A DNA stretch of 64,000 nt. Source: Escherichia phage vB_EcoM_DE17. Location of the stretch: sequence record OP595146.1. One strand, written 5' to 3'. The notes under the pieces are model-generated. The model ran no database searches and was not told where the DNA came from. It worked only from the letters and a program-made list of their open reading frames with translations. This document shows, piece after piece, positions 18,161 to 58,232 of this stretch. Position numbers and translations under genes: made by a program. Within the stretch, counting starts at the first letter, position 1. The number at the start of each line of letters is the position of its first letter.

Positions 18161-18946
18161 TTAGTTCTTTGCGTCTAAGAAGGTAACTTCTTGTGATGAG
18201 AAAATCTCCTCGATATCCTCATCAGTTCTTGCATAGATATAAGTATCTGCATCACTGCCAAATGTTACTGCAATCCTGTGATTGCTCTTCGACAGGTGGG
18301 TAACTAGAGCGTTACTTAGAGACATCTTTTCAACCGGAGGGTTACTTTGATGTATCTTGCCTTTTCTTCGTCTGAAGAGGGTAACTGCATCATCAGTGAA
18401 CGTTACTACACCTGCAAAGTATTCTGGTTCACAGTAGTTCTTCCAACCTGAGAGTAACTTGTGGTACAACTCTCCTTCGTAGACATATAGATAAACATCT
18501 ACACTCTTCATCACCTGATTAATGATAACGGTGACGGCTTGAGGGTCTAGTCCACCGATACCTGCACCAATCATAGGTAACCCAACTTTCTTCAACTGAT
18601 TAACTTCACAGTACCTGTTAAGCTGTTTCAAAGATGATTCTAAAGCACTGTATCGGGCATCTTTACCAGTCTTAAGCTGAGTGTAAAGGTTAGCTATACG
18701 GCCTTGTTTTAAACGTGCTACAGAGAAATTACCTAGTAAGTTCTCACAGGGCTTGTGGCCTATGCCACCTGCATACAGATAAACTTCTGTATCAGTCTCA
18801 TATGCTTTTGGGTAAAGTTTAGAAATCTTGTCAGCGATACCTGCACCCATTAAATTCATACAGTTGCAACCGTGACCAATGACGTCAAACTTACCTTTAT
18901 CAAATGCGGCAAAGATATCACCATTGATGATTTTTATAATACCCAT
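18161..18946 (-). CDS. macro-domain (ADP-ribose-binding/processing) protein with C-terminal extension
   Basis: 261 aa; N-terminal IINGDIF...DVIGHGCNCMNLMGAGIA and later GLPMIGAGIGGLDP follow the macro-domain pattern (G-D-I-x, H/N-x-x-N-x-x-x-G-x-G-I-A, second Gly-rich loop). Recalled pattern, not a search hit. Confidence 0.6.
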   Translation of the reverse strand: MGIIKIINGDIFAAFDKGKFDVIGHGCNCMNLMGAGIADKISKLYPKAYETDTEVYLYAGGIGHKPCENLLGNFSVARLKQGRIANLYTQLKTGKDARYSALESSLKQLNRYCEVNQLKKVGLPMIGAGIGGLDPQAVTVIINQVMKSVDVYLYVYEGELYHKLLSGWKNYCEPEYFAGVVTFTDDAVTLFRRRKGKIHQSNPPVEKMSLSNALVTHLSKSNHRIAVTFGSDADTYIYARTDEDIEEIFSSQEVTFLDAKN

Positions 18947-19147
18947 TTAACATCTCTCCCAAGATTCTTTATCTTCTGAAGGTTTTACACGCTGCCCTTC
19001 GTGGTCTACCCAGATGCACCCACAACCTTCACAGATTACTGGCATTGCATAGCCAGCTTTAAAGTCATCTTCAGTGATAAGACCCTTTAAGTCACCTGTA
19101 TCACGTCCGAACATTTCGATAGCACAGTCTTTGCAGAAGTCAGCCAT
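18947..19147 (-). CDS. small Cys-rich zinc-ribbon-like protein
   Basis: 66 aa with C-x-x-C ... C-x-G-C-G-C; translationally coupled to the macro-domain gene. Confidence 0.5.
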   Translation of the reverse strand: MADFCKDCAIEMFGRDTGDLKGLITEDDFKAGYAMPVICEGCGCIWVDHEGQRVKPSEDKESWERC

Positions 19148-19373
19148 GAATAATTACCTCTTGAGTGATGATGCCTTTACCACAGCGACTTTTAAAGTCT
19201 CCTAATGGTTCAGAGAAGAAGTCACGGAAATGGTTACTGCACTCACGTTTCATCACCTTCTTGTAAGTTAACACATCTTCTCCTGTAAACGGGACGACTT
19301 CATGTCTCCCTTTGAATACTGCTGAACTTACAATCTTACGTGTCTTTTTATCTCTGGCTAGTATTACTTTCAT
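19140..19373 (-). CDS. hypothetical protein
   Basis: 77-aa ORF. Confidence 0.5.
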   Translation of the reverse strand: MKVILARDKKTRKIVSSAVFKGRHEVVPFTGEDVLTYKKVMKRECSNHFRDFFSEPLGDFKSRCGKGIITQEVIIHG

Positions 19374-19713
19374 AGTTTACCTTCTCAGTTAGCTCATATA
19401 AATCAACATGCTCAAGACTATCAATGTTGATACCAATCTTTTTGAAGCGTTCTATCACTTCGTTGTCAGTCATCCATATCAGACACCAATGATTGTGGAT
19501 GGATTCTTCAAGAAGGTCAACACAATCTTTAAAAGTTTTTGTATCACTTCTTGTTCCGACTACTGCGATTGTCCCATACAACCACTTACCATTACCATAA
19601 GATACTTGTGCTACGCCAACTTCTTTATCTTTCTCGTAGTAAACGGCTACAAAGTCTCTTCCATTAATCTGCATTTGTAAGTTCCTCTGTTGGTAATTCA
19701 CCATTTTCAGCAA
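19348..19713 (-). CDS. hypothetical protein (start may be the internal ATG at 19674)
   Basis: 121-aa ORF; 50-nt overlap with the upstream gene if the longest start is used. Confidence 0.5.
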   Translation of the reverse strand: MLKMVNYQQRNLQMQINGRDFVAVYYEKDKEVGVAQVSYGNGKWLYGTIAVVGTRSDTKTFKDCVDLLEESIHNHWCLIWMTDNEVIERFKKIGINIDSLEHVDLYELTEKVNYESNTSQR

Positions 19714-19978
19714 AGTACTGAAGGTATGGCAATAACTCTTTCACCTGTTCTTGGTTGAGTTTCATTCTTTGGTTACCTACAAAATCTTTGCCTACTAATG
19801 CTGGGATATCAAGTGTTTTCCAGCCACCATCTAGGTACTGAACAGAGACCTCTTTAGCACCTAACCAAATACATGGTTCATATGATGAACTCTCTTGTAA
19901 AGTACAAATTTCCCCTTTAGCATCTTTAAATTCTGCATAAGAAAATCCACGATTTGTTGGCTGGAATTGCATAATCAT
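19664..19978 (-). CDS. hypothetical protein
   Basis: 104-aa ORF. Confidence 0.5.
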   Translation of the reverse strand: MIMQFQPTNRGFSYAEFKDAKGEICTLQESSSYEPCIWLGAKEVSVQYLDGGWKTLDIPALVGKDFVGNQRMKLNQEQVKELLPYLQYFAENGELPTEELTNAD

Positions 19979-20244
19979 TTCCTCGTTTTGATAACTGCTA
20001 AGATTTCTTTAGAGTCTGGTAAGAACCATGTGTAGTGATTCTCTTTGATTTCTGGATGAGTGTCAACCTTTATTTTGCACTCTTTACCAACGTGCTTAAG
20101 CTGTGCTGTGACACCTTGCATAAAGATATGACACATCACATTATCCATAATGGTTGGTAAGAAGTCAATTCGCATATAAGTTTCTTTTGGTCGTGGTAAC
20201 AGTAAGTAACCCTCTACGTAAAAAGTATCTTCATTCTCTGTCAT
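19975..20244 (-). CDS. hypothetical protein
   Basis: 89-aa ORF. Confidence 0.5.
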   Translation of the reverse strand: MTENEDTFYVEGYLLLPRPKETYMRIDFLPTIMDNVMCHIFMQGVTAQLKHVGKECKIKVDTHPEIKENHYTWFLPDSKEILAVIKTRK

Positions 20245-20510
20245 TGCTGTTTATTTCCTAATAAAATCATATCAATAAGGTTATTAGCTTTGATTGTGCA
20301 CTGGTAAAAACCATCACGATAAAACTCAAGGGCTGCTGCCACATCACTACCGGTATTACCTTTGATAGTGAATCTTGACTCCTCTTGAGTGTACTTGTCA
20401 CTCTCACTTACTTGGGAGTTTTTGAATGTACTGTTCACTTTGTTCGTTGAACACCCTGACATAATTATCAGTAACACAAACATTATAAAACTCTGGCTTA
20501 GTTTTTTCAT
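20241..20510 (-). CDS. putative o-spanin (Rz1-like outer-membrane lipoprotein)
   Basis: 89 aa; signal peptide with lipobox-like IIMSGC; starts inside the upstream gene in another frame, the classic Rz/Rz1 layout. Confidence 0.5.
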   Translation of the reverse strand: MKKLSQSFIMFVLLIIMSGCSTNKVNSTFKNSQVSESDKYTQEESRFTIKGNTGSDVAAALEFYRDGFYQCTIKANNLIDMILLGNKQQ

Positions 20511-20751
20511 ATGTTAGTACCTCTTTTGTATGCTTATTCTTAGCAAGCACATCTTTCAAATCATTTTTGTAATTGGTGCTCAGTGTGGCTAAACCTTCCT
20601 GATAAGCGTCTTTAGCAACACTTATTAGTTTCTCATTGCTTAACTCAGCTTCAGCAACTTGGTAGTCTCTGTAAGAGTATCCTCCCCAGACACCTGCCCC
20701 AACTAAGAAAACAATTATGAAAGTAGCTTGACAGAACTCTTTAAATGTCAT
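20404..20751 (-). CDS. putative i-spanin (Rz-like, N-terminal TM plus periplasmic coiled coil)
   Basis: 115 aa; N-terminal TM (ATFIIVFLVGAGVWGGY) followed by a charged helical region; overlaps the lipoprotein ORF. Confidence 0.5.
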   Translation of the reverse strand: MTFKEFCQATFIIVFLVGAGVWGGYSYRDYQVAEAELSNEKLISVAKDAYQEGLATLSTNYKNDLKDVLAKNKHTKEVLTYEKTKPEFYNVCVTDNYVRVFNEQSEQYIQKLPSK

Positions 20752-20767
20752 TTAACAATCTCCTGAA

Positions 20768-20793
20768 ATGAAAAAGGCTCCCGAAGGAGCCTG
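20768..20793 (-). terminator. rho-independent terminator (minus strand)
   Basis: GGCTCC-CGAA-GGAGCC hairpin with a U-run on the minus strand. Confidence 0.55.
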
Positions 20794-20803
20794 TATCTTA
20801 ACC

Positions 20804-21283
20804 TTAACCGAGGACTTTAGCAAGGATATTTGCAGCCATCGAAGAAGCTTTTGCAGCAGCAACTACGCCAGCTTTGACAGTGCTATCCTTAATAGCAGAT
20901 ACCGTTGCAGCATCAGTAAAGAGATAAGTGATTGTTTTAGAACCACTCGTAAAGGAAAGCATAAGAGTAGTTTCCAGATTGAAAGAGCGATACGGAGCAC
21001 CTTCTTTAACGATACCTTCAGCACCTAACTCTGAAGCCTTACCCATATCATAGATAGTCATCAGGTTTTCTTTGTGTGCAGTCGTTGAACCAGCACCTTT
21101 TACGTGCTTTTTAACATTCAACAATGCACGATATTCACGAATGCTGCCATCAGCTTTTACATTAACAGCACGGAAAATTTTACCTTCAAAGTTACCTTGA
21201 ATCATTTTACGAACTACTTCAGATTTGTTTGCCGTATCGTCCAGTGCTACCGTAATGATATTGTTCATAAGTTTTTCTCTCAA
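20804..21283 (-). CDS. hypothetical protein (start possibly at MNNIITV)
   Basis: 159-aa ORF. Confidence 0.55.
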   Translation of the reverse strand: MREKLMNNIITVALDDTANKSEVVRKMIQGNFEGKIFRAVNVKADGSIREYRALLNVKKHVKGAGSTTAHKENLMTIYDMGKASELGAEGIVKEGAPYRSFNLETTLMLSFTSGSKTITYLFTDAATVSAIKDSTVKAGVVAAAKASSMAANILAKVLG

Positions 21284-21975
21284 TGTTTAACTAACATGGT
21301 TTTAATGTGTGGAAGGATTCTGTTAACCTTCTGAACATTCTTCTCTGTATCTTCTATAAAACATACTATATTAAAATAAGGAAGAATGCAAGATTGAATC
21401 ATCCTCACTTTCAAACTTTCTGCACTTATAGAGTTAGTTCCAAAACCACGCATAAAAAGCATGTAATCATGCTCTATGTAATGCCTTAAAAACATCTCAG
21501 TAGGTACTCTCTGAGATTCACCCCTCGCTGTCAAGAGTCCAATGGTAGCATGATTAGAGATTGCATCAATAATATTGAAAACATATGTTGGTTTTGCACT
21601 TACAGAGTCAAGCAAATTAGTGTACTGTGAAAATGACCCATCAATCAGTTCCGTTGAGCAATCTTCGTGATTAAAATTTGTAAGAACACCATCAATATCT
21701 GCTAAGATGAGGTTACCTTTTTCTACAAGGTCTTTATTAACTATGACTAAACTGTCACGTCTTACACCTATAGATTGCCCCGTCTCTTTATCCACAACGT
21801 TCACAATTGGTTGTGATGTGTGGAACTCTTCAAGTGAACATACAACTTCTCTTGCAGTGTCTTCAAAATCCCTGCACTGTTCTGAAGTCCATACACAGGA
21901 ATCAAGACCTAACTCATGAGGGTGCAAGTCATAAGCATGGCACAATATTTCATCAGACTTTCTTAATTTTTTCAT
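21280..21975 (-). CDS. putative HAD-like hydrolase / nucleotidase
   Basis: 231 aa; ADIDGVLTN resembles HAD motif I (DxDGxL) and GLLTARGE motif II. Weak, motif-only. Confidence 0.4.
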   Translation of the reverse strand: MKKLRKSDEILCHAYDLHPHELGLDSCVWTSEQCRDFEDTAREVVCSLEEFHTSQPIVNVVDKETGQSIGVRRDSLVIVNKDLVEKGNLILADIDGVLTNFNHEDCSTELIDGSFSQYTNLLDSVSAKPTYVFNIIDAISNHATIGLLTARGESQRVPTEMFLRHYIEHDYMLFMRGFGTNSISAESLKVRMIQSCILPYFNIVCFIEDTEKNVQKVNRILPHIKTMLVKH

Positions 21976-22501
21976 GGTTTACCTTAGAAATGTTTGTTGC
22001 AAATTCACATTGAGCGATGACTTTCATATTGTTGTAGACATCTTGAGAGTATTTCTTAGCTTTAGGGATTTTGTACGAATACCCAGCATTATATGATGCT
22101 AAAACTTTTTGTAAAGTCTTCTTTGACTTTGGCTGACCATGCACCTTTGTCCAAAACTCAAGCTCTTTATGTGTTTCTTTTGCGGCATAATCAAAGTCCT
22201 TTAAGAGTTTCTTTTTAGCCACATTAGGACTGATTTTGTTACGCTTTACAACAGTCTTCAAGTGATTCTGGAAAATACCATAGTCGTGGGTCTTTTTATT
22301 CTCTACCTTCAGACCTAACTCTGACTCTTGTAAGGCTATAGCTGCTAGAGTAATACCCCAGCCTTTCCCCATATTATTCTCACCATACTGGTAAGCTTTT
22401 AACATGTTTACTTTTTGGCTAATTGTTAGCTCTGGGCAGTCAACTGCATAAGATAAGTGTGCTGTAAACATTAAGCACAAGCCTAGAATCAATTTCTTCA
22501 T
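21953..22501 (-). CDS. secreted lytic-transglycosylase-like (SLT domain) protein
   Basis: 182 aa; N-terminal signal peptide (MKKLILGLCLMFTAHLSYA), then ALQESELG ... YGIFQ resembling the SLT catalytic Glu-Ser and GLMQ-type motifs. Confidence 0.5.
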   Translation of the reverse strand: MKKLILGLCLMFTAHLSYAVDCPELTISQKVNMLKAYQYGENNMGKGWGITLAAIALQESELGLKVENKKTHDYGIFQNHLKTVVKRNKISPNVAKKKLLKDFDYAAKETHKELEFWTKVHGQPKSKKTLQKVLASYNAGYSYKIPKAKKYSQDVYNNMKVIAQCEFATNISKVNHEKIKKV

Positions 22502-22562
22502 TGGTTCTCCTGTTTAGTTTATCGTGACAACAATTATACAGCACTCTGCACAAAATACAAAT

Positions 22563-22586
22563 AAAAAAGGCCGCCGAAGCAGCCTT
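22563..22586 (-). terminator. rho-independent terminator (minus strand)
   Basis: GGCTGC-TTCG-GCGGCC hairpin then UUUUUU on the minus strand, just after rIIB. Confidence 0.55.
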
Positions 22587-22601
22587 TTAAGAAATTACTT
22601 A

Positions 22602-23711
22602 TTAGATTTCACGTTTACGTTGAGAGATAAGTTCACCAGCAGTGCCAACGATGACATGCAAAGCTTCAGTCTTACCATCCCATGCTTTCAGCACTTTACG
22701 TTGATTATCAACGATTGCTGCAACTTCATAACGAGAGGAACGCATCTTCATATCGTTGTAATCAGTTGGAACAGATACAACATCTCGTGGATGGACACGA
22801 ACCTTCAGGATGGTATCACCTGAGAAGCAACGAACATAATCCCAAGCACCAACATGAAGACCTTGAGAGCAAGTTACGTTACGGTTGTTATCAACCATCC
22901 AACGTGGCATCTCTACAATGTTACCCAAATCATTAGGTACTTTGTAGGTGTGAGAGTCAACCAGCTTGCCTTCACGAGTAGAGACTTTCTTCCAACCAAT
23001 GATGTAGCCTTCTTCATCAATTTCAACATCAAGGTGAGATACAAATCCCCAAAGTTGTTCTACAGAATCTTTAGATGGGTTTTCCATCAGTTTTTCGAAG
23101 AACATTACAAGTCGTTCAAAACCTTTATCACCAGTTTTCATCATGTGAAGAATACGGTCAACCAGAGTAGAACGCATCTCAACAGCACCGTAGAAGAGCT
23201 TGTCACCTTTGATTGTGATAGCGCCCTGAGTGAAGTTTTCGATAGACTTACGAATGTTCATCAGTTCAAATGCTTTCTTGAACTCACCTTTCACAACATG
23301 AACTACAATCTCTTGATAGTTCGGATGAGTAGATTCAACAATTTCAGATTCTGAACCGTAAGTCATAATTACAGAGTCACCAGTAATCATGTACTCAATC
23401 TTGTCATCTTTCTGCATAGCTTCATGCAGTTTATTCACTGGAGCTTTCTGTACAGCGTCTTTAACGACCTTTTCAACTGGTTTGCCAGCTTTCTTCTTAA
23501 AGGTCTTAGCAACTTGCTTCAAAGTCTTCGTAGCTGGTGTAGAAGCTGCCTTTTTCTTTCCTTTTAAGGTTGCTTCATGACGCTCTACAGCACGACCAAC
23601 TGAACGGGTTGAAGTATTGAACTTCTGTGCAATAGCTGTTTTAGTCAGCTTACCTTCTTTAACCAGTTCGTAAATTTCTGCGTCAATCTGTGCTTTAGTT
23701 TTAGTAGTCAT
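22602..23711 (-). CDS. rIIB: rIIB-like protein
   Basis: 369 aa; C-terminal KVRVHPRDVVSVPTDYNDMKMRSSRYEV closely matches the T4 rIIB C-terminus as recalled; adjacent to rIIA. Confidence 0.8.
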   Translation of the reverse strand: MTTKTKAQIDAEIYELVKEGKLTKTAIAQKFNTSTRSVGRAVERHEATLKGKKKAASTPATKTLKQVAKTFKKKAGKPVEKVVKDAVQKAPVNKLHEAMQKDDKIEYMITGDSVIMTYGSESEIVESTHPNYQEIVVHVVKGEFKKAFELMNIRKSIENFTQGAITIKGDKLFYGAVEMRSTLVDRILHMMKTGDKGFERLVMFFEKLMENPSKDSVEQLWGFVSHLDVEIDEEGYIIGWKKVSTREGKLVDSHTYKVPNDLGNIVEMPRWMVDNNRNVTCSQGLHVGAWDYVRCFSGDTILKVRVHPRDVVSVPTDYNDMKMRSSRYEVAAIVDNQRKVLKAWDGKTEALHVIVGTAGELISQRKREI

Positions 23712-23790
23712 CTTATTACTCTCTCTTGTTAATTAATAAATCATTTTGTAAGGCTATTCTAAGGGGCTTTGAAGCCCCTTGTCAAACACT

Positions 23791-26157
23791 TTAATCGTAA
23801 ATTGTAGTCCCTTCTGGAACACACTTCACATCAAAGCCTAAGAACTTACTCACTTCGATGGGTGACACTTTATTCCAATCTAAATGAGAAAGCAAGAAGT
23901 TTTCTTGTTTTCTTTTTGAAAGGTAGTTTGTCACCTTGATGACCATACGGTCACCAGCTTTCTTAATTTTCTTGTACAGCTTTGTATCATTATCAAGACA
24001 GCTTTTTAAATCTTGCAACACACTAATAGTGTAAGTGTATGCAAAAGGTGCAGCAACGTATTGGATTTTACCAAACATTGCCTCTACAGCATCTTCATTA
24101 CCTTCTAAGAAGATAGTTTTGTTTGTGTCTCGTGAATAGCAATAACCGCGAGAAATCTTCCTGTTATTGAACGTAAAGTTTCTGGCAATAATCCAACTGC
24201 TTGTAAGGTCTAGGACACCATTCATATAGATACGTGTCATATACCTGTTATGATTAATCCAGTGAACATCAGTTAAGCTGTCGTTCAAGAGCTTCTCATC
24301 TACTTCAATCCAGTCTTCTGGTATCTTTTTCCAATTTGCTTTTCGGAAAACATAGACTGTCTTTTCAATGACATTGGCAACTGACTTAGCTACATCTTCT
24401 GGAGATGAGCAAAAACATTCACCATCAACTGTGTCGCCTACTGCCTTAATATAAAGCTGAGGCTCTTCAATCGTATCTAAGTCTTCTGACACCTCTTTGT
24501 ATGAAGCTACGCCTTCTGCTGGAACAGCTTTCCAAAGTTTTACAACACCTCTTACAGCTTCTTTACGCTGATAATGGTGTTCCTTATCAGACATCTTCAC
24601 AATCTTTAACAAGCTTTTATCAAGTTTGTGAAGATTGATTAAATCATCTAGCTCTTCCTCATTAGAGAATACAAAGACGATACCATTGTATCTGTGAAAC
24701 AGACTTGACTCACTGGCATAGTCTCGACATGCACCACGCAGAATCTGATTGCGTCCTACAGTCTTCTCAGTACCATTTTTATTGCGACGGTCATTTATAA
24801 CAAACAAAAACTGTTCAATTTGACTTTTACGCATTGCGCCAAAGATATTGAACATACTTGCCTCTTGAGTGTAGGAAAGCGCTGTTGCACGAATCTTACT
24901 TTCTAAAGAGTTGAACTTAACATAAGCAACTGGATTATAAAGATAATCTACTTTAGGGATATTGTTCCCGTTCCTATCAACCTTAATATTGCCTTTACCG
25001 TCACGTTCGTAAATGACTGAGCCGTCTTCTGCGTAGATAATTCCACGACGAATGTTTAGTAATTCTTCTTCCAGAGAATCAAGCTTAACACCACCCCACT
25101 CTAGCTTTGGACACACAGCATTAAACATCTCTCGTGAGTTCAAGCGTAACTCAGCATAAGCCTGTGCAGCATCCATGAGTGTAGGTTGGCTATTAACTTT
25201 CTTGATAACATCCTTTGTAATTGCTTCAGTTATCTTTTTGGTAGCCTCAATGATAACATTTTTTGTCGTATCATTCATCTGCAATGCTTCACGAGAAGCT
25301 GCAATAGCAACTGAGCCAATAGGCATGTAGATGTTTACAAGGTCTACGCTCCTGCGGAAAAATTCTGGCAATACTTTGAAGAAATCATCACCAAGTAATG
25401 CTTCCATATTAACAGGGTAGGCAATGTTACCCATCACCACATTAAACTCTGTCCTGTTACCACTAGAACGCCAGCTTTGTTTGTGAATCATGGCATCATA
25501 AACACCTTCTTCACGGGCAATGACATTCATATCTGCTAATACATCGTCATACTCGATATTACTTTCTGGTTTTACAGCAAAGTATGAGTATACGTTACCA
25601 GCTTCTTCAAAGAACTTTGAGATGCGGTGGTCAGCAACTGCTACACGTACAGCTAAACCATTAGGCTCTTTTGTTGGGTTGGTGGTCAGTTTAGTTACTT
25701 GAGGAATGCCATTCTCAAGGTAAACAGAGTACTTATTAACCACACCATCAACATAGCTAGACACTGTGAATGACTGAGCAATTGCAAATGGGGATTTTGA
25801 GCCGATACCCATTGCACCAATGTAGTCATTAGAGTCATTCTTCGTAGAAGCCCCGTAGTTTAGGTACAAACTCATAACTTTATCATGAGTCAATCCAGTT
25901 CCAAAATCACGGACTTCAAAGTAAGGCTCAAAACGAGTAGGTAAATGCACATGGAACGGGATATTCTCTTTTCCAGCTTCTTTCTGAGCATCTACTGCGT
26001 TACATGACAGTTCACGAATCACTGCCCTTTCTTTAAAGGTATATACACCAGAACTCAAAAGGCTGAACATTTCAGGTGTCATTGTAATCTGTGCTTGAGA
26101 CGTCTCTAAAGAAGTTGAACTCTTAATCACTTCTGCGTGGTCATTTACCATGCGCAT
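23791..26157 (-). CDS. rIIA: rIIA-like protein (GHKL-type ATPase fold N-terminus)
   Basis: 788 aa; AVIRELSCNAVDA, RDFGTGL and SNDYIGAMGIGSKSPFA match the N-box/G1/G2 motifs of T4 rIIA as recalled. Confidence 0.85.
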   Translation of the reverse strand: MRMVNDHAEVIKSSTSLETSQAQITMTPEMFSLLSSGVYTFKERAVIRELSCNAVDAQKEAGKENIPFHVHLPTRFEPYFEVRDFGTGLTHDKVMSLYLNYGASTKNDSNDYIGAMGIGSKSPFAIAQSFTVSSYVDGVVNKYSVYLENGIPQVTKLTTNPTKEPNGLAVRVAVADHRISKFFEEAGNVYSYFAVKPESNIEYDDVLADMNVIAREEGVYDAMIHKQSWRSSGNRTEFNVVMGNIAYPVNMEALLGDDFFKVLPEFFRRSVDLVNIYMPIGSVAIAASREALQMNDTTKNVIIEATKKITEAITKDVIKKVNSQPTLMDAAQAYAELRLNSREMFNAVCPKLEWGGVKLDSLEEELLNIRRGIIYAEDGSVIYERDGKGNIKVDRNGNNIPKVDYLYNPVAYVKFNSLESKIRATALSYTQEASMFNIFGAMRKSQIEQFLFVINDRRNKNGTEKTVGRNQILRGACRDYASESSLFHRYNGIVFVFSNEEELDDLINLHKLDKSLLKIVKMSDKEHHYQRKEAVRGVVKLWKAVPAEGVASYKEVSEDLDTIEEPQLYIKAVGDTVDGECFCSSPEDVAKSVANVIEKTVYVFRKANWKKIPEDWIEVDEKLLNDSLTDVHWINHNRYMTRIYMNGVLDLTSSWIIARNFTFNNRKISRGYCYSRDTNKTIFLEGNEDAVEAMFGKIQYVAAPFAYTYTISVLQDLKSCLDNDTKLYKKIKKAGDRMVIKVTNYLSKRKQENFLLSHLDWNKVSPIEVSKFLGFDVKCVPEGTTIYD

Positions 26158-32123: not shown

Positions 32124-32515
32124 TCAAACACCACCTGACAAGGAACCTGTTTAGTAATAAATTCTTCACAGTGCTCTTTAATGAAGTTTTGTAATGGTAC
32201 ACAATCTTGTGCGCAAGTCATTAGCATAATGTACTCTGGATTCATGATGTTTTCAAGACTGTAGAAGACAACATCATCAGATAGTTCGTGACCATCTTCT
32301 TCAGACCAAGTTCCAGTGACTACAGCTAATTTGTCAAGCAATTCATTAGGCAATGCTACACTATCTTCTACAGAATCACTTAGAACATTGTCGCCGATAT
32401 ACAATGTGAAGACCGTGTGGAATGTTGAGTATCTTACGTGATTCTTTTCACAAGAGCCACACTCTGAGGCATAATCTTTAATCCACTCTAACTGTTTTTG
32501 GCTCAACTTAATCAT
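32120..32515 (-). CDS. hypothetical protein
   Basis: 131-aa ORF. Confidence 0.5.
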   Translation of the reverse strand: MIKLSQKQLEWIKDYASECGSCEKNHVRYSTFHTVFTLYIGDNVLSDSVEDSVALPNELLDKLAVVTGTWSEEDGHELSDDVVFYSLENIMNPEYIMLMTCAQDCVPLQNFIKEHCEEFITKQVPCQVVFE

Positions 32516-32712
32516 AATTTCACCTTAGTCGGTAATGCACTGAATGCTATAGATAACCCTAAAAATGGTTTGAAGCATGACCATAAATCCATCTGACCAT
32601 GATATGAGAAACCCCATTGTGGGTCTGAAAAACCCCATACCATAACACTAACCCCAAAGAAGAAGACTAGAATATGGAGTATGTATATCAACGCTTTTGA
32701 TATCTTAAACAT
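32512..32712 (-). CDS. hypothetical small membrane protein
   Basis: 66 aa, mostly hydrophobic. Confidence 0.45.
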   Translation of the reverse strand: MFKISKALIYILHILVFFFGVSVMVWGFSDPQWGFSYHGQMDLWSCFKPFLGLSIAFSALPTKVKL

Positions 32713-32865
32713 TTTAACTTACCTTTCAATTCACAATAAGAGAGTCCTAAAAAGAACCCTAGTAAGACAGAACCTATGAACAACCCAATAATACTCTCTG
32801 CCATATCTAACATCCAATAAAAAGGTGATGTAAGCCTACCAAGACCCACATCACCTTGTCAAGTT

Positions 32866-35058: not shown

Positions 35059-35265
35059 TTAAATCTTTTTAGAAAACTTCGAAACGAGTTTTCTTAGTTT
35101 TTCAGTGATACCTAGCTGTATCTCTAATATTTCAAAGATAACCCATAGTAACATGGCTCCAAACAATGAACCTTGTTCAAAATCAGTAAATAGGTTAACA
35201 ACAAGCATACCAATCACAATGGCTGGTGCATCAACAACCAAGCCTTCCCAAAGGCGTTTAAGCAT
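35059..35265 (-). CDS. hypothetical small membrane protein
   Basis: 68 aa, hydrophobic core. Confidence 0.45.
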   Translation of the reverse strand: MLKRLWEGLVVDAPAIVIGMLVVNLFTDFEQGSLFGAMLLWVIFEILEIQLGITEKLRKLVSKFSKKI

Positions 35266-51784: not shown

Positions 51785-52021
51785 ATGTGGAAAGCAGTAA
51801 TTGTGTTTGGTGTTATCTTTCTGTCTGGCTGTAACCCATCTTACGAGGACAAAAACGCTTCTTATAGCCTCCCACCAGAGATGCAAGATTGCAAAGTCTA
51901 TAAGTTAAATGGGGATGCAATAAGCACAGATATTGTTGTTGTCAGATGTCCAAACTCTCAAACGACAACATCTTATAGATATGGTAAAAATAGCCAATCA
52001 CACACTACGGTTATTGAGTGA
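51785..52021 (+). CDS. putative lipoprotein
   Basis: Signal peptide with lipobox FLSGC (MWKAVIVFGVIFLSGCNPSY). Confidence 0.5.
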   Translation: MWKAVIVFGVIFLSGCNPSYEDKNASYSLPPEMQDCKVYKLNGDAISTDIVVVRCPNSQTTTSYRYGKNSQSHTTVIE

Positions 52022-57860: not shown

Positions 57861-58232
57861 TTATTTTTCAGTATTCTTTGTGTTCTTTTCAGTAATAGCT
57901 TGCAAGGCTGATACTGATTGAGCCAGATTGTTCACACTGTCAGAGAATTTATCAAGAGTCTTAGTAAGTTTTGCATTCTCACCCTTAACATTCTCTAACT
58001 GAACTTTCTGGTTCTCCATCCCTAGCTGAATCAGTCTCATGTCAGACTGTAAATCACGAATAGCTGAGTAATTACTTTTGGAATAATTATCTAACTGCTG
58101 TAACTTTGTTGTGACAGAAACTTCTTGTTTACCACTTGAAACTTGCATGGTGGTATACATCCCAATAACACTAAAAATACCAACTACAATTGCACCAATA
58201 TTATTTTTAAAAGCTTCCTCTAGCCACTTCAT
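57861..58232 (-). CDS. hypothetical membrane-anchored coiled-coil protein
   Basis: 123 aa; N-terminal TM (IGAIVVGIFSVIGMYTT). Confidence 0.5.
   Translation of the reverse strand: MKWLEEAFKNNIGAIVVGIFSVIGMYTTMQVSSGKQEVSVTTKLQQLDNYSKSNYSAIRDLQSDMRLIQLGMENQKVQLENVKGENAKLTKTLDKFSDSVNNLAQSVSALQAITEKNTKNTEK

What the first reader, a model, noticed from the sequence alone, without database searches (positions are those of the whole stretch)
20241..20751. Overlapping spanin-like gene pair unlinked to the endolysin
A TM-anchored coiled-coil protein overlaps, out of frame, an ORF encoding a lipobox-bearing signal peptide. This is the embedded Rz/Rz1 layout, but it lies about 15 kb from the lysozyme and no holin was identified next to either.
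Basis: inference. Interest (0 to 1): 0.35.

Follow-up and report, generated by a model that had tools for sequence, protein, structure and literature searches.

The report
Known Felix O1-type overlapped spanin pair
The two overlapping genes are the standard inner- and outer-membrane spanin pair of a Felix O1-like phage, which breaks the host outer membrane at lysis, and both the pair and its separation from the lysozyme gene are already published for this phage group.

Summary
The window is a Felix O1-like myophage (Felixounavirus, 99.7% identical to Escherichia phage KEP3 here). On the minus strand, 20404..20751 encodes a 115-aa protein with one N-terminal membrane helix. 20241..20510 encodes an 89-aa lipoprotein precursor (MKKLSQSFIMFVLLIIMSGC, lipobox Cys20, Ser at +2). 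The second gene starts inside the first in the +1 frame, shares 107 nt with it and runs 163 nt past its stop. That is the overlapped architecture, not the embedded lambda Rz/Rz1 layout.

The pair is real. An overlapping lipobox ORF is present in 35 of 35 related loci, including relatives with only 28-38% i-spanin identity. Third-codon-position variability collapses inside the overlap (p=7e-6 and 5e-8). Both genes have Shine-Dalgarno sites.

It is also already known. Kongari et al. 2018 place the Felix O1, Mushroom, Moogle and wV8 spanins in the overlapped "JH2" families. GenBank relatives label them i-spanin and o-spanin. Genome papers state that lysis genes of Felix O1-like phages are scattered, as in T4.

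The lysozyme (5072..5536, + strand) is 14.7 kb away. The holin annotated in relatives lies in the tRNA cluster just outside the window. "Coiled-coil" was not verified. No complementation experiment for this family turned up in the two literature searches I ran. Interest is low.

The parts
20404..20751 (-). i-spanin gene (115 aa): N-terminal transmembrane anchor followed by an 89-aa periplasmic domain with one conserved Cys (C92)
   Evidence: ORF. phrog_1152 'Rz-like spanin' E=8.9e-42 over the full length. 96-100% identical to the Felix O1 and Mushroom i-spanins. Conserved C-terminal motif EK..F.N.C...Y...FN across Ounavirinae and Kuravirus.
20680..20736 (-). codons 6-24 of the i-spanin: the single predicted transmembrane helix FCQATFIIVFLVGAGVWGG
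   Evidence: Kyte-Doolittle 19-residue mean of 1.75, the only window above 1.6. AlphaFold2 helix at residues 3-17, low confidence.
20241..20510 (-). o-spanin gene (89-aa precursor, 70-aa mature outer-membrane lipoprotein, no proline, second conserved Cys at C71)
   Evidence: ORF. Lipobox match and composition. phrog_4180 E=9e-51, weak phrog_456 'Rz-like spanin' 5.4e-5. Annotated o-spanin in SME50, Mushroom, Mordin and Moogle. Invariant C20-S-T, E62, C71, N76, L78 in distant relatives.
20451..20510 (-). o-spanin signal peptide with lipobox (MKKLSQSFIMFVLLIIMSG|C; Cys20 codon at 20451..20453; Ser at +2, not Asp, predicts sorting to the outer membrane)
   Evidence: Pattern match. Conserved in 35 of 35 loci. 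The +2 sorting rule comes from established Lol-pathway knowledge.
20404..20510 (-). 107-nt dual-coding overlap (i-spanin codons 81-115 plus stop, and o-spanin codons 1-36, +1 frame)
   Evidence: Third-position variability in the i frame is 60/80 outside the overlap against 10/35 inside (Fisher p=7e-6). In the o frame it is 46/54 against 9/34 (p=5e-8).
20760..20764 (-). Shine-Dalgarno AGGAG, 8 nt upstream of the i-spanin ATG
   Evidence: Read from the sequence. Conserved in relatives.
20520..20523 (-). Shine-Dalgarno GAGG inside the i-spanin gene, 9 nt upstream of the o-spanin ATG
   Evidence: Read from the sequence. AAAGAGGTA is invariant in all 32 aligned relatives. Annotated as an RBS in Mushroom and Mordin.
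20775..20792 (-). GC-rich hairpin (AGGCUCC-UUCG-GGAGCCU) followed by a U-run: terminator-like element immediately 5' of the i-spanin ribosome-binding site
   Evidence: Terminator scan. Fold of -14.1 kcal/mol. Annotated as a terminator in Mordin. Analogous hairpins with different stems in Zyzzx, Rouille and SU10.
5072..5536 (+). soluble lysozyme-type endolysin (154 aa), the muralytic partner in lysis, 14.7 kb away on the other strand
   Evidence: phrog_7 endolysin E=1.3e-56. Annotated endolysin, lysozyme or lysin in relatives.

Best explanation
These two genes encode the two-component spanin of a Felix O1-like phage, of the overlapped architectural class.

The 115-aa product inserts in the inner membrane through its N-terminal helix, with the N-terminus in the cytoplasm, and extends about 89 residues into the periplasm. 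The 89-aa product is exported by Sec. It is lipidated on Cys20 and cleaved by signal peptidase II. Because residue +2 is Ser rather than Asp, the Lol system carries it to the inner leaflet of the outer membrane.

The two periplasmic domains bind each other through their conserved C-terminal regions and form a bridge across the periplasm, threaded through the peptidoglycan mesh. A holin encoded elsewhere lets the soluble lysozyme (5072..5536) reach the wall. Once the wall is degraded, the spanin complexes are free to move and change conformation. They then fuse or disrupt the inner and outer membranes, which is the last step of lysis.

What is shown here: the topology signals, the gene architecture, selection on both reading frames, and sequence membership in a curated spanin family. 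What is inferred by analogy with lambda Rz/Rz1 and T4 PseT.3/PseT.2: lipidation, the i-o contact, disulfide bonding through C92 and C71, and membrane fusion.
For: The window is a Felixounavirus (99.7% identity to KEP3; 275 matching phage records).

The i-spanin matches phrog_1152 'Rz-like spanin' at E=8.9e-42. It is 96.5% identical to Felix O1 ORF6 and 98.3% identical to the Mushroom i-spanin.

Kongari et al. 2018 list Felix01, FO1a, Mushroom, Moogle, WV8, EC6 and UAB_phi87 in the overlapped 'JH2' i-spanin family, together with NJ01 and PhiEco32, and in the 'JH2' o-spanin family. My tblastn recovers the same link between Ounavirinae and Kuravirus independently.

Topology: one TM helix in the i-spanin; a lipobox with Cys20 and Ser at +2 in the o-spanin.

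An overlapping lipobox ORF is present in 35 of 35 loci. This includes Hafnia phage Zyzzx, Erwinia phage Rouille and Kuravirus SU10, with overlaps of 107-137 nt, where i-spanin identity is only 28-38%. Conserved C-terminal motifs and one invariant periplasmic Cys occur in each subunit.

Dual-coding constraint in the overlap: p=7e-6 and p=5e-8. Both starts have Shine-Dalgarno sites.

The scattered lysis-gene layout is documented for this group and for T4, whose spanins also lie next to the polynucleotide kinase gene.
Against: Neither of the two literature searches I ran nor the papers I opened reports an experimental test of this spanin family, such as complementation, lipidation or localisation. 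PMC8300805 says further studies are needed.

No Pfam or NCBIfam family matches either protein above threshold. PHROGs labels the o-spanin family (phrog_4180) 'unknown function'.

The AlphaFold2 model of the i-spanin is low-confidence (pLDDT 58), and heptad periodicity is not significant.

The genes sit in what looks like an early or middle cluster (rIIA, rIIB, vs.1-like, PNK), directly behind a terminator-like hairpin. Their expression timing is therefore unknown.
Confidence: 0.88

Rival explanations
1. The lipoprotein is a superinfection-exclusion or receptor-masking lipoprotein, like T5 Llp or the Cor proteins. The TM protein is an unrelated early membrane protein, and their overlap is just compact phage gene packing.
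For: The genes lie in an early-looking cluster with rIIA, rIIB and PNK rather than with late or lysis genes. PHROGs gives the o-spanin family no function. The phage has another small orphan lipoprotein ORF at 51785..52021, so small lipoproteins with other roles exist in this genome.
Against: The TM-protein and lipoprotein pairing, with the lipoprotein start inside the 3' end of the TM gene, persists across Ounavirinae and into Kuravirus podophages, whose neighbouring genes are otherwise different. Both partners keep conserved C-terminal motifs and one periplasmic Cys each, as expected for interacting subunits. The family is curated as spanins. T4 spanins are likewise placed among early or middle genes next to pseT and have been shown to complement lambda RzRz1.
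Confidence: 0.05
2. The 89-aa overlapping ORF is not translated. It would be a chance open frame, and only the 115-aa membrane protein would be real.
For: Several gene callers miss it, shorten it to 73 or 68 aa, or call a different small ORF (vB_EcoM_D4; fjerdesal 73 aa; Rouille; clusters of 73 and 68 aa).
Against: The full ORF with lipobox is intact in 35 of 35 loci. The GAGG Shine-Dalgarno site is invariant. Third-position variability in the i-spanin frame drops from 0.75 to 0.29 exactly in the overlap. The non-overlapping part of the o-ORF shows normal coding behaviour (third position 0.85, second position 0.15; 61 synonymous against 33 non-synonymous events). Missed and truncated calls of overlapped o-spanins are a known gene-caller bias (PMC6139136).
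Confidence: 0.02
3. The pair is a spanin, but it works mainly with the neighbouring Sec-exported Vs.1-like lytic transglycosylase (21953..22501) rather than with the distant lysozyme. The two together would form a local, holin-independent wall and outer-membrane disruption module.
For: An SLT/GH23-type enzyme with a signal peptide lies 1.2 kb upstream on the same strand. This layout is kept in Mordin and Zyzzx. Some annotators call it 'putative lysin'.
Against: Vs.1 homologs occur in more than 2,100 phage records, including T4-likes, where vs.1 is not near the spanins and is not known as the lysis enzyme (the latter point is from my own knowledge of T4). A terminator-like hairpin after rIIB and another just before the i-spanin separate the units. 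In Kuravirus SU10 the homologous spanin pair has no such neighbour. The phage carries a canonical soluble endolysin.
Confidence: 0.05

Closest known systems
Felix O1 ORF6/ORF7 (Felix01p014/p015) and Mushroom gp124/gp123: the overlapped 'JH2' i-spanin and o-spanin families of Kongari et al. 2018 (PMC6139136)
   Same: 96-100% protein identity. Identical lengths (115 and 89 aa), the same 107-nt +1 overlap and the same flanking genes (PNK upstream, small ORFs and a phosphatase/macro-domain gene downstream).
   Different: Nothing of substance. There are a few conservative substitutions, for example FTIK against YIIK in the mature o-spanin.
Spanin pairs of Kuravirus / phiEco32-like podophages (SU10, NJ01, phiEco32)
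   Same: Same i-spanin family (about 31-37% identity across the Kuravirus hits; listed together). Same overlapped layout (116 nt in SU10), same conserved Cys and C-terminal motifs, and a terminator-like hairpin just upstream.
   Different: Different phage morphotype and neighbouring genes. Kongari et al. do not group their o-spanins with the Felix O1 o-spanins, although my alignment shows shared motifs.
Phage P2 LysB/LysC (prototype of the overlapped architecture)
   Same: The o-spanin gene starts inside the i-spanin gene and runs past its end. The functional logic is the same (architecture definition; P2 as the example is from my own knowledge).
   Different: A different sequence family in Kongari's tables. 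P2 has a contiguous lysis cassette.
Lambda Rz/Rz1
   Same: A type II inner-membrane protein plus an outer-membrane lipoprotein encoded in the +1 frame. At least one periplasmic Cys is available for intermolecular disulfides.
   Different: Lambda is embedded (Rz1 lies wholly within Rz) and sits in an S-R-Rz cassette. According to Kongari et al., lambda's o-spanin is smaller than T4's and lacks helical structure; from my own knowledge, mature Rz1 is about 40 aa and proline-rich. Here the mature lipoprotein is 70 aa with no proline. No Pfam Rz or Rz1 match.
T4 PseT.3/PseT.2
   Same: The spanin genes are unlinked to the endolysin (e) and holin (t) and lie next to the polynucleotide kinase gene. 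The sizes are similar (117 and 99 aa).
   Different: Separated architecture (4-nt junction). No detectable sequence or profile similarity beyond the signal peptide. The cysteine pattern differs: T4 has none in the i-spanin and two in the o-spanin, whereas here there is one in each.

Membership tests
Two-component spanin (generic definition, Summer 2007 / Kongari 2018) | i-spanin: small protein with a single N-terminal TMD and the rest periplasmic (type II, N-in/C-out) | tested here: met
   One hydrophobic segment at residues 6-24 (KD 1.75) and none elsewhere. The orientation is inferred from charge distribution, not measured.
Two-component spanin (generic definition, Summer 2007 / Kongari 2018) | o-spanin: signal peptidase II signal with a lipobox Cys, and a +2 residue that is not Asp (outer-membrane sorting) | tested here: met
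   MKKLSQSFIMFVLLIIMSG|CST matches the PROSITE-type lipobox pattern, with Ser at +2. C-S-T is invariant in distant relatives.
Two-component spanin (generic definition, Summer 2007 / Kongari 2018) | o-spanin gene adjacent to, overlapping or embedded in the i-spanin gene, on the same strand | tested here: met
   107-nt overlap in the +1 frame, conserved in 35 of 35 loci.
Two-component spanin (generic definition, Summer 2007 / Kongari 2018) | at least one periplasmic cysteine for intermolecular disulfides (507 of 528 systems) | tested here: met
   i-spanin C92 and o-spanin C71 are invariant across the family. Disulfide formation itself was not tested.
Two-component spanin (generic definition, Summer 2007 / Kongari 2018) | i-spanin periplasmic domain predicted helical or coiled-coil | tested here: inconclusive
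   AlphaFold2 predicts helices at 39-60, 65-79 and 85-111, but at pLDDT 58. The heptad test is not above shuffles (89 of 500).
Two-component spanin (generic definition, Summer 2007 / Kongari 2018) | functional: needed for outer-membrane disruption; complements lambda Rz/Rz1 amber mutants | not testable with these tools
   Requires a wet-lab experiment. Neither of my two literature searches nor the papers read (for example) reports one for this family.
Overlapped 'JH2' i-spanin and o-spanin families (Kongari 2018) | sequence similarity to listed members (Felix01, Mushroom, Moogle, WV8, EC6) | tested here: met
   96.5% identity to the Felix O1 i-spanin, 98.3% to Mushroom, about 76% to the Mooglevirus phage Mordin. 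The o-spanin is 82% identical to the Moogle o-spanin (P0042).
Embedded architecture class (lambda Rz/Rz1 type) | o-spanin reading frame lies entirely within the i-spanin reading frame | tested here: not met
   The o-spanin ends at 20241, 163 nt beyond the i-spanin stop at 20404.
Lambda Rz / Rz1 sequence families (Pfam) | significant match to the Pfam Rz or Rz1 models | tested here: not met
   No Pfam family at E<=0.01 for either protein.
T4 PseT.3 / PseT.2 spanin families | sequence or profile similarity to T4 PseT.3 and PseT.2 | tested here: not met
   BLASTP E=17 for the i-spanin and 0.035 for the o-spanin (signal peptide only). hhalign probabilities of 1% and 12.7%.

The most novel reading that the evidence does not exclude
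The spanin pair may be more than a passive late lysis gene. It would be a mobile module consisting of a terminator hairpin, an SD site, the i-spanin and the o-spanin. That module is shared between Ounavirinae myophages and Kuravirus podophages and is expressed by regulated read-through of the conserved upstream hairpin. In Felix O1-like phages it would cooperate with the neighbouring Sec-exported Vs.1-type lytic transglycosylase, which would make part of envelope disruption independent of the distant lysozyme and of the still unverified holin.
Probability: 0.06. Interest if true: 0.4.

Novelty: already known. Interest (0 to 1): 0.08.

Why it matters
It matters little beyond correct annotation. 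The pair belongs to a catalogued spanin family, and its scattered genomic position is the described norm for Felix O1-like and T4-like phages.

The practical value is as an annotation check. Many database records of near-identical phages still miss, truncate or mislabel the o-spanin, and they label the neighbouring Vs.1-like transglycosylase as a RegB endoribonuclease.

The only open biology nearby is that the Felix O1-type spanins and holin have not, in the literature I could search, been tested experimentally.

Tried and rejected
- Pfam and NCBIfam scans of both proteins gave nothing above threshold. The only hits were generic lipoprotein-signal matches and one spurious match.
- Homology to T4 PseT.3/PseT.2 was tested because of the shared position next to PNK. 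BLASTP and hhalign were both negative, so common ancestry is not supported by sequence.
- AlphaFold2 on the i-spanin used a shallow 14-sequence alignment. The model has pLDDT 58 and cannot be used for fold search or for a coiled-coil call.
- A crude heptad-periodicity test was not significant.
- The large protein database searches returned only 15 i-spanin and 24 o-spanin clusters, mostly close relatives, and added little beyond the phage-record tblastn.
- I searched the window for a holin. The protein annotated as holin in Mushroom has no homolog in the window. Small membrane ORFs found by hydropathy match only PHROG families of unknown function or 'membrane protein', so no holin could be assigned.
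- I considered the rivals of a spurious ORF and of a superinfection-exclusion lipoprotein, and rejected both on the conservation and dual-coding evidence.
- I did not attempt a fused i/o complex prediction.

Full report
**What is at the coordinates**

Both ORFs of the finding are on the minus strand.

ORF A, 20404..20751, encodes 115 aa: MTFKEFCQATFIIVFLVGAGVWGGYSYRDYQ...QKLPSK. Its only hydrophobic segment is residues 6-24 (Kyte-Doolittle 19-residue mean 1.75).

ORF B, 20241..20510, encodes 89 aa. It begins MKKLSQSFIMFVLLIIMSGC|STNK: a basic n-region, a hydrophobic core, a lipobox that fits the PROSITE-type pattern, Cys20, and Ser at +2.

ORF B starts at codon 81 of ORF A in the +1 frame. It shares 107 nt with ORF A (20404..20510) and continues 163 nt past ORF A's stop. 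By the definitions in Kongari et al. 2018 (PMC6139136) this is the overlapped architecture, not the embedded one of lambda Rz/Rz1.

Both starts have Shine-Dalgarno sequences. AGGAG lies 8 nt before the ORF A ATG, and GAGG lies 9 nt before the ORF B ATG.

**Is it more than chance?**

Among 608 ATG-started ORFs of at least 40 aa in all six frames of the window, only four have a lipobox plus a basic n-region. Only this one overlaps the end of a TM-anchored gene.

I collected 34 related loci from GenBank phage records and IMG/VR and analysed them together with the window. In all 35 sequences an ATG ORF with a lipobox overlaps the 3' end of the i-spanin homolog by 107-137 nt. This includes Hafnia phage Zyzzx, Erwinia phage Rouille (where the o-spanin is not annotated) and the podophage SU10, whose i-spanins are only 28-38% identical to this one.

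In the 32 gaplessly alignable sequences I compared variability at third codon positions. In the single-coding parts it is 0.75 for the i-spanin and 0.85 for the o-spanin. Inside the overlap it falls to 0.29 and 0.26 (Fisher p=7e-6 and 5e-8). That is the signature expected when both frames are under selection.

The GAGG site for the o-spanin is invariant. The o-spanin ORF is therefore a real gene, and the 89-aa start is the correct one. Shorter 73-aa and 68-aa calls in databases lose the signal peptide.

**What genome this is**

Region 19000-23800 is 99.7% identical to Escherichia phage KEP3 and matches 275 phage records, almost all of them Felixounavirus and other Ounavirinae.

On the minus strand, in transcription order, the neighbourhood is:

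- rIIA (23791..26157)
- rIIB (22602..23711)
- a 182-aa signal-peptide protein (21953..22501)
- polynucleotide kinase (21280..21975)
- a 159-aa ORF (20804..21283)
- several small ORFs
- a phosphatase/macro-domain protein (18161..18946)

**Identity of the pair**

ORF A matches PHROG 1152 'Rz-like spanin' at E=8.9e-42. ORF B matches phrog_4180 (no function assigned) and weakly matches a spanin PHROG.

Relatives label the two genes i-spanin and o-spanin: SME50, fjerdesal, Mushroom, Mordin and others.

Kongari et al. 2018 list Felix01, FO1a, UAB_phi87, Mushroom, Moogle, WV8, EC6 and the FSL_SP phages in the overlapped 'JH2' i-spanin family, which also contains NJ01 and PhiEco32. The same phages, minus NJ01 and PhiEco32, appear in the 'JH2' o-spanin family. 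My tblastn independently recovers the link from Ounavirinae to Kuravirus/phiEco32-like phages.

Alignments of distant members show two conserved patterns. The i-spanin has an invariant C-terminal motif, EK..F.N.C...Y...FN, with one periplasmic Cys (C92). The o-spanin has invariant C20-S-T, a C-terminal LEFYRD.FY.C..K.N.LID motif, and a second Cys (C71). This fits two interacting subunits and the general rule that spanins carry periplasmic cysteines.

There is no Pfam or NCBIfam match. There is also no sequence or profile similarity to T4 PseT.3/PseT.2.

**The claim 'unlinked to the endolysin, no holin nearby'**

The lysozyme-type endolysin is at 5072..5536 on the + strand (phrog_7, E=1.3e-56). 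It is 14.7 kb from the pair.

This is the published state of affairs for the group. [quoted passage not shown] In Mushroom the annotated holin (185 aa, one N-terminal TMD) lies inside the tRNA cluster, about 3.5 kb to the left of tRNA-Glu and tRNA-Pro. In this window those two tRNAs are at 119..280, so the holin homolog falls just outside the window. Accordingly it has no tblastn match inside the window. That holin assignment is itself only bioinformatic: the protein falls in phrog_2143, function unknown.

T4 shows the same scattering. Its spanins pseT.3 and pseT.2 also lie beside the polynucleotide kinase gene pseT. They are not near the T4 holin gene t or endolysin gene e, and they have been shown to complement lambda RzRz1.

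**'Coiled-coil'**

AlphaFold2, run on the 14 available homologs, predicts a mostly helical periplasmic domain, but with mean pLDDT 58. My simple heptad a/d contrast test was not above shuffles (89 of 500). Helical character is plausible. A coiled coil is not demonstrated.

**Mechanism**

The shown steps are the topology signals, the architecture, the conservation and the family membership.

The inferred steps rest on analogy with lambda and T4 as summarised in PMC6139136. They are: Sec export; lipidation at Cys20; Lol sorting to the outer membrane (Ser at +2); C-terminal i-o contact spanning the periplasm; possible disulfide-linked multimers through C92 and C71; and membrane fusion once the endolysin has removed the peptidoglycan.

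A terminator-like hairpin plus U-run (20775..20792, -14.1 kcal/mol) lies directly before the i-spanin ribosome-binding site. The pair must therefore be transcribed by read-through, or else the hairpin marks a processed or stabilised 5' end. Hairpins with different stems occupy the same position in Zyzzx, Rouille and SU10. I did not resolve what this means.

**Side finding bearing on 'unlinked'**

The 182-aa protein at 21953..22501, 1.2 kb upstream on the same strand, has a signal peptide. It also has the lytic-transglycosylase motifs E59-S60, G-x-F-Q78 and Y137-N138-x-G140, all conserved in homologs.

Pfam SLT scores just below threshold. A profile of homologs hits the type III secretion transglycosylase EtgA (8urn, E=3.9e-5). 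An AlphaFold2 model with pLDDT 85 resembles goose-type lysozymes and the lytic transglycosylases Slt, MltE and MltF, though only weakly by Foldseek (E about 0.01-1, TM about 0.5).

It is the homolog of T4-type Vs.1 (RB69 vs.1, E=6e-12) and has relatives in more than 2,100 phage records. Several records mislabel it as a RegB-like endoribonuclease.

So a second, exported muralytic enzyme does sit near the spanins. Nothing shows that it is the lysis enzyme.

**Verdict**

The interpretation as a spanin pair is right. Both the pair and its scattered placement are already described for Felix O1-like phages. Novelty: already known. Interest: low.

Noticed in passing
window 21953..22501 (-): A 182-aa protein with a signal peptide and conserved lytic-transglycosylase (SLT/GH23) motifs. 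It is a homolog of T4-type Vs.1 and lies 1.2 kb upstream of the spanins. It is annotated inconsistently in relatives: 'putative lysin', 'RegB-like endoribonuclease' or 'hypothetical'. The RegB label looks like an error carried over from the old note 'protein in vs-regB intergenic region'.
   Followed up: yes
window 20775..20792 (-); L008 about 2431-2449, L009 about 2457-2472, L010 about 2408-2425: A terminator-like GC hairpin plus U-run lies immediately 5' of the i-spanin Shine-Dalgarno site. Hairpins with unrelated stem sequences occupy the same position in Hafnia phage Zyzzx, Erwinia phage Rouille and Kuravirus SU10, but two Felix-like loci (L033, L034) lack one. Its significance is unknown: read-through control, a transcript end, or part of a mobile spanin module.
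   Followed up: partly
window 51785..52021 (+): A second small lipoprotein ORF (78 aa, MWKAVIVFGVIFLSGC|NPS...) among the small genes downstream of the DNA polymerase gene. It falls in phrog_902, function unknown. No TM-protein partner is evident. It could be a superinfection-exclusion-type lipoprotein.
   Followed up: partly
window 57861..58232 (-): A 123-aa protein with an N-terminal TM helix and a long, charged, helical-looking domain. This is an i-spanin-like topology. It lies just downstream of the tail-fibre gene. It matches phrog_4038 (unknown), with a faint hit to a spanin PHROG (E=0.009). No lipoprotein partner was seen.
   Followed up: partly
window 35059..35265 (-): A 68-aa ORF with two predicted TM helices and a basic C-terminal tail, which is a class II holin-like size and topology. 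It sits between the NrdD and thioredoxin-like genes and matches phrog_4532, function unknown. Other small membrane ORFs nearby are at 32512..32712 and 32688..32849 ('membrane protein' PHROGs).
   Followed up: partly
window 7883..8386 (+): A 167-aa protein with two C-terminal TM helices, 2.3 kb downstream of the endolysin on the same strand. It matches phrog_4343, function unknown, and some relatives annotate it 'membrane protein'.
   Followed up: no
window 119..280; L005 7414-7575: ARAGORN places tRNA-Glu(UUC) and tRNA-Pro(UGG) on the minus strand. The Mushroom GenBank record lists the syntenic tRNAs on the plus strand with the same gene order. One of the two strand assignments must be wrong.
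   Followed up: no
window 18161..21975 compared with L010 (SU10) and L041 (T4): Spanin genes lie close to a polynucleotide kinase or phosphoesterase gene in three different phage groups: T4 (pseT.3-pseT.2-pseT.1-pseT), Felix O1-likes (PNK, one ORF, spanins) and Kuravirus SU10 (a phosphoesterase about 1.8 kb upstream and a macro-domain gene immediately downstream). Yet the T4 spanins show no sequence similarity to this family.
   Followed up: partly
L003 24600-24734 (vB_EcoM_D4); L001 4234-4455 (fjerdesal); L009 (Rouille): Annotation errors for the o-spanin in public records of close relatives. It is replaced by a different 135-nt ORF in D4, truncated to 73 aa and so lacking its signal peptide in fjerdesal, and absent in Rouille, although an intact 91-aa lipobox ORF is present at L009 2712-2987.
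   Followed up: yes
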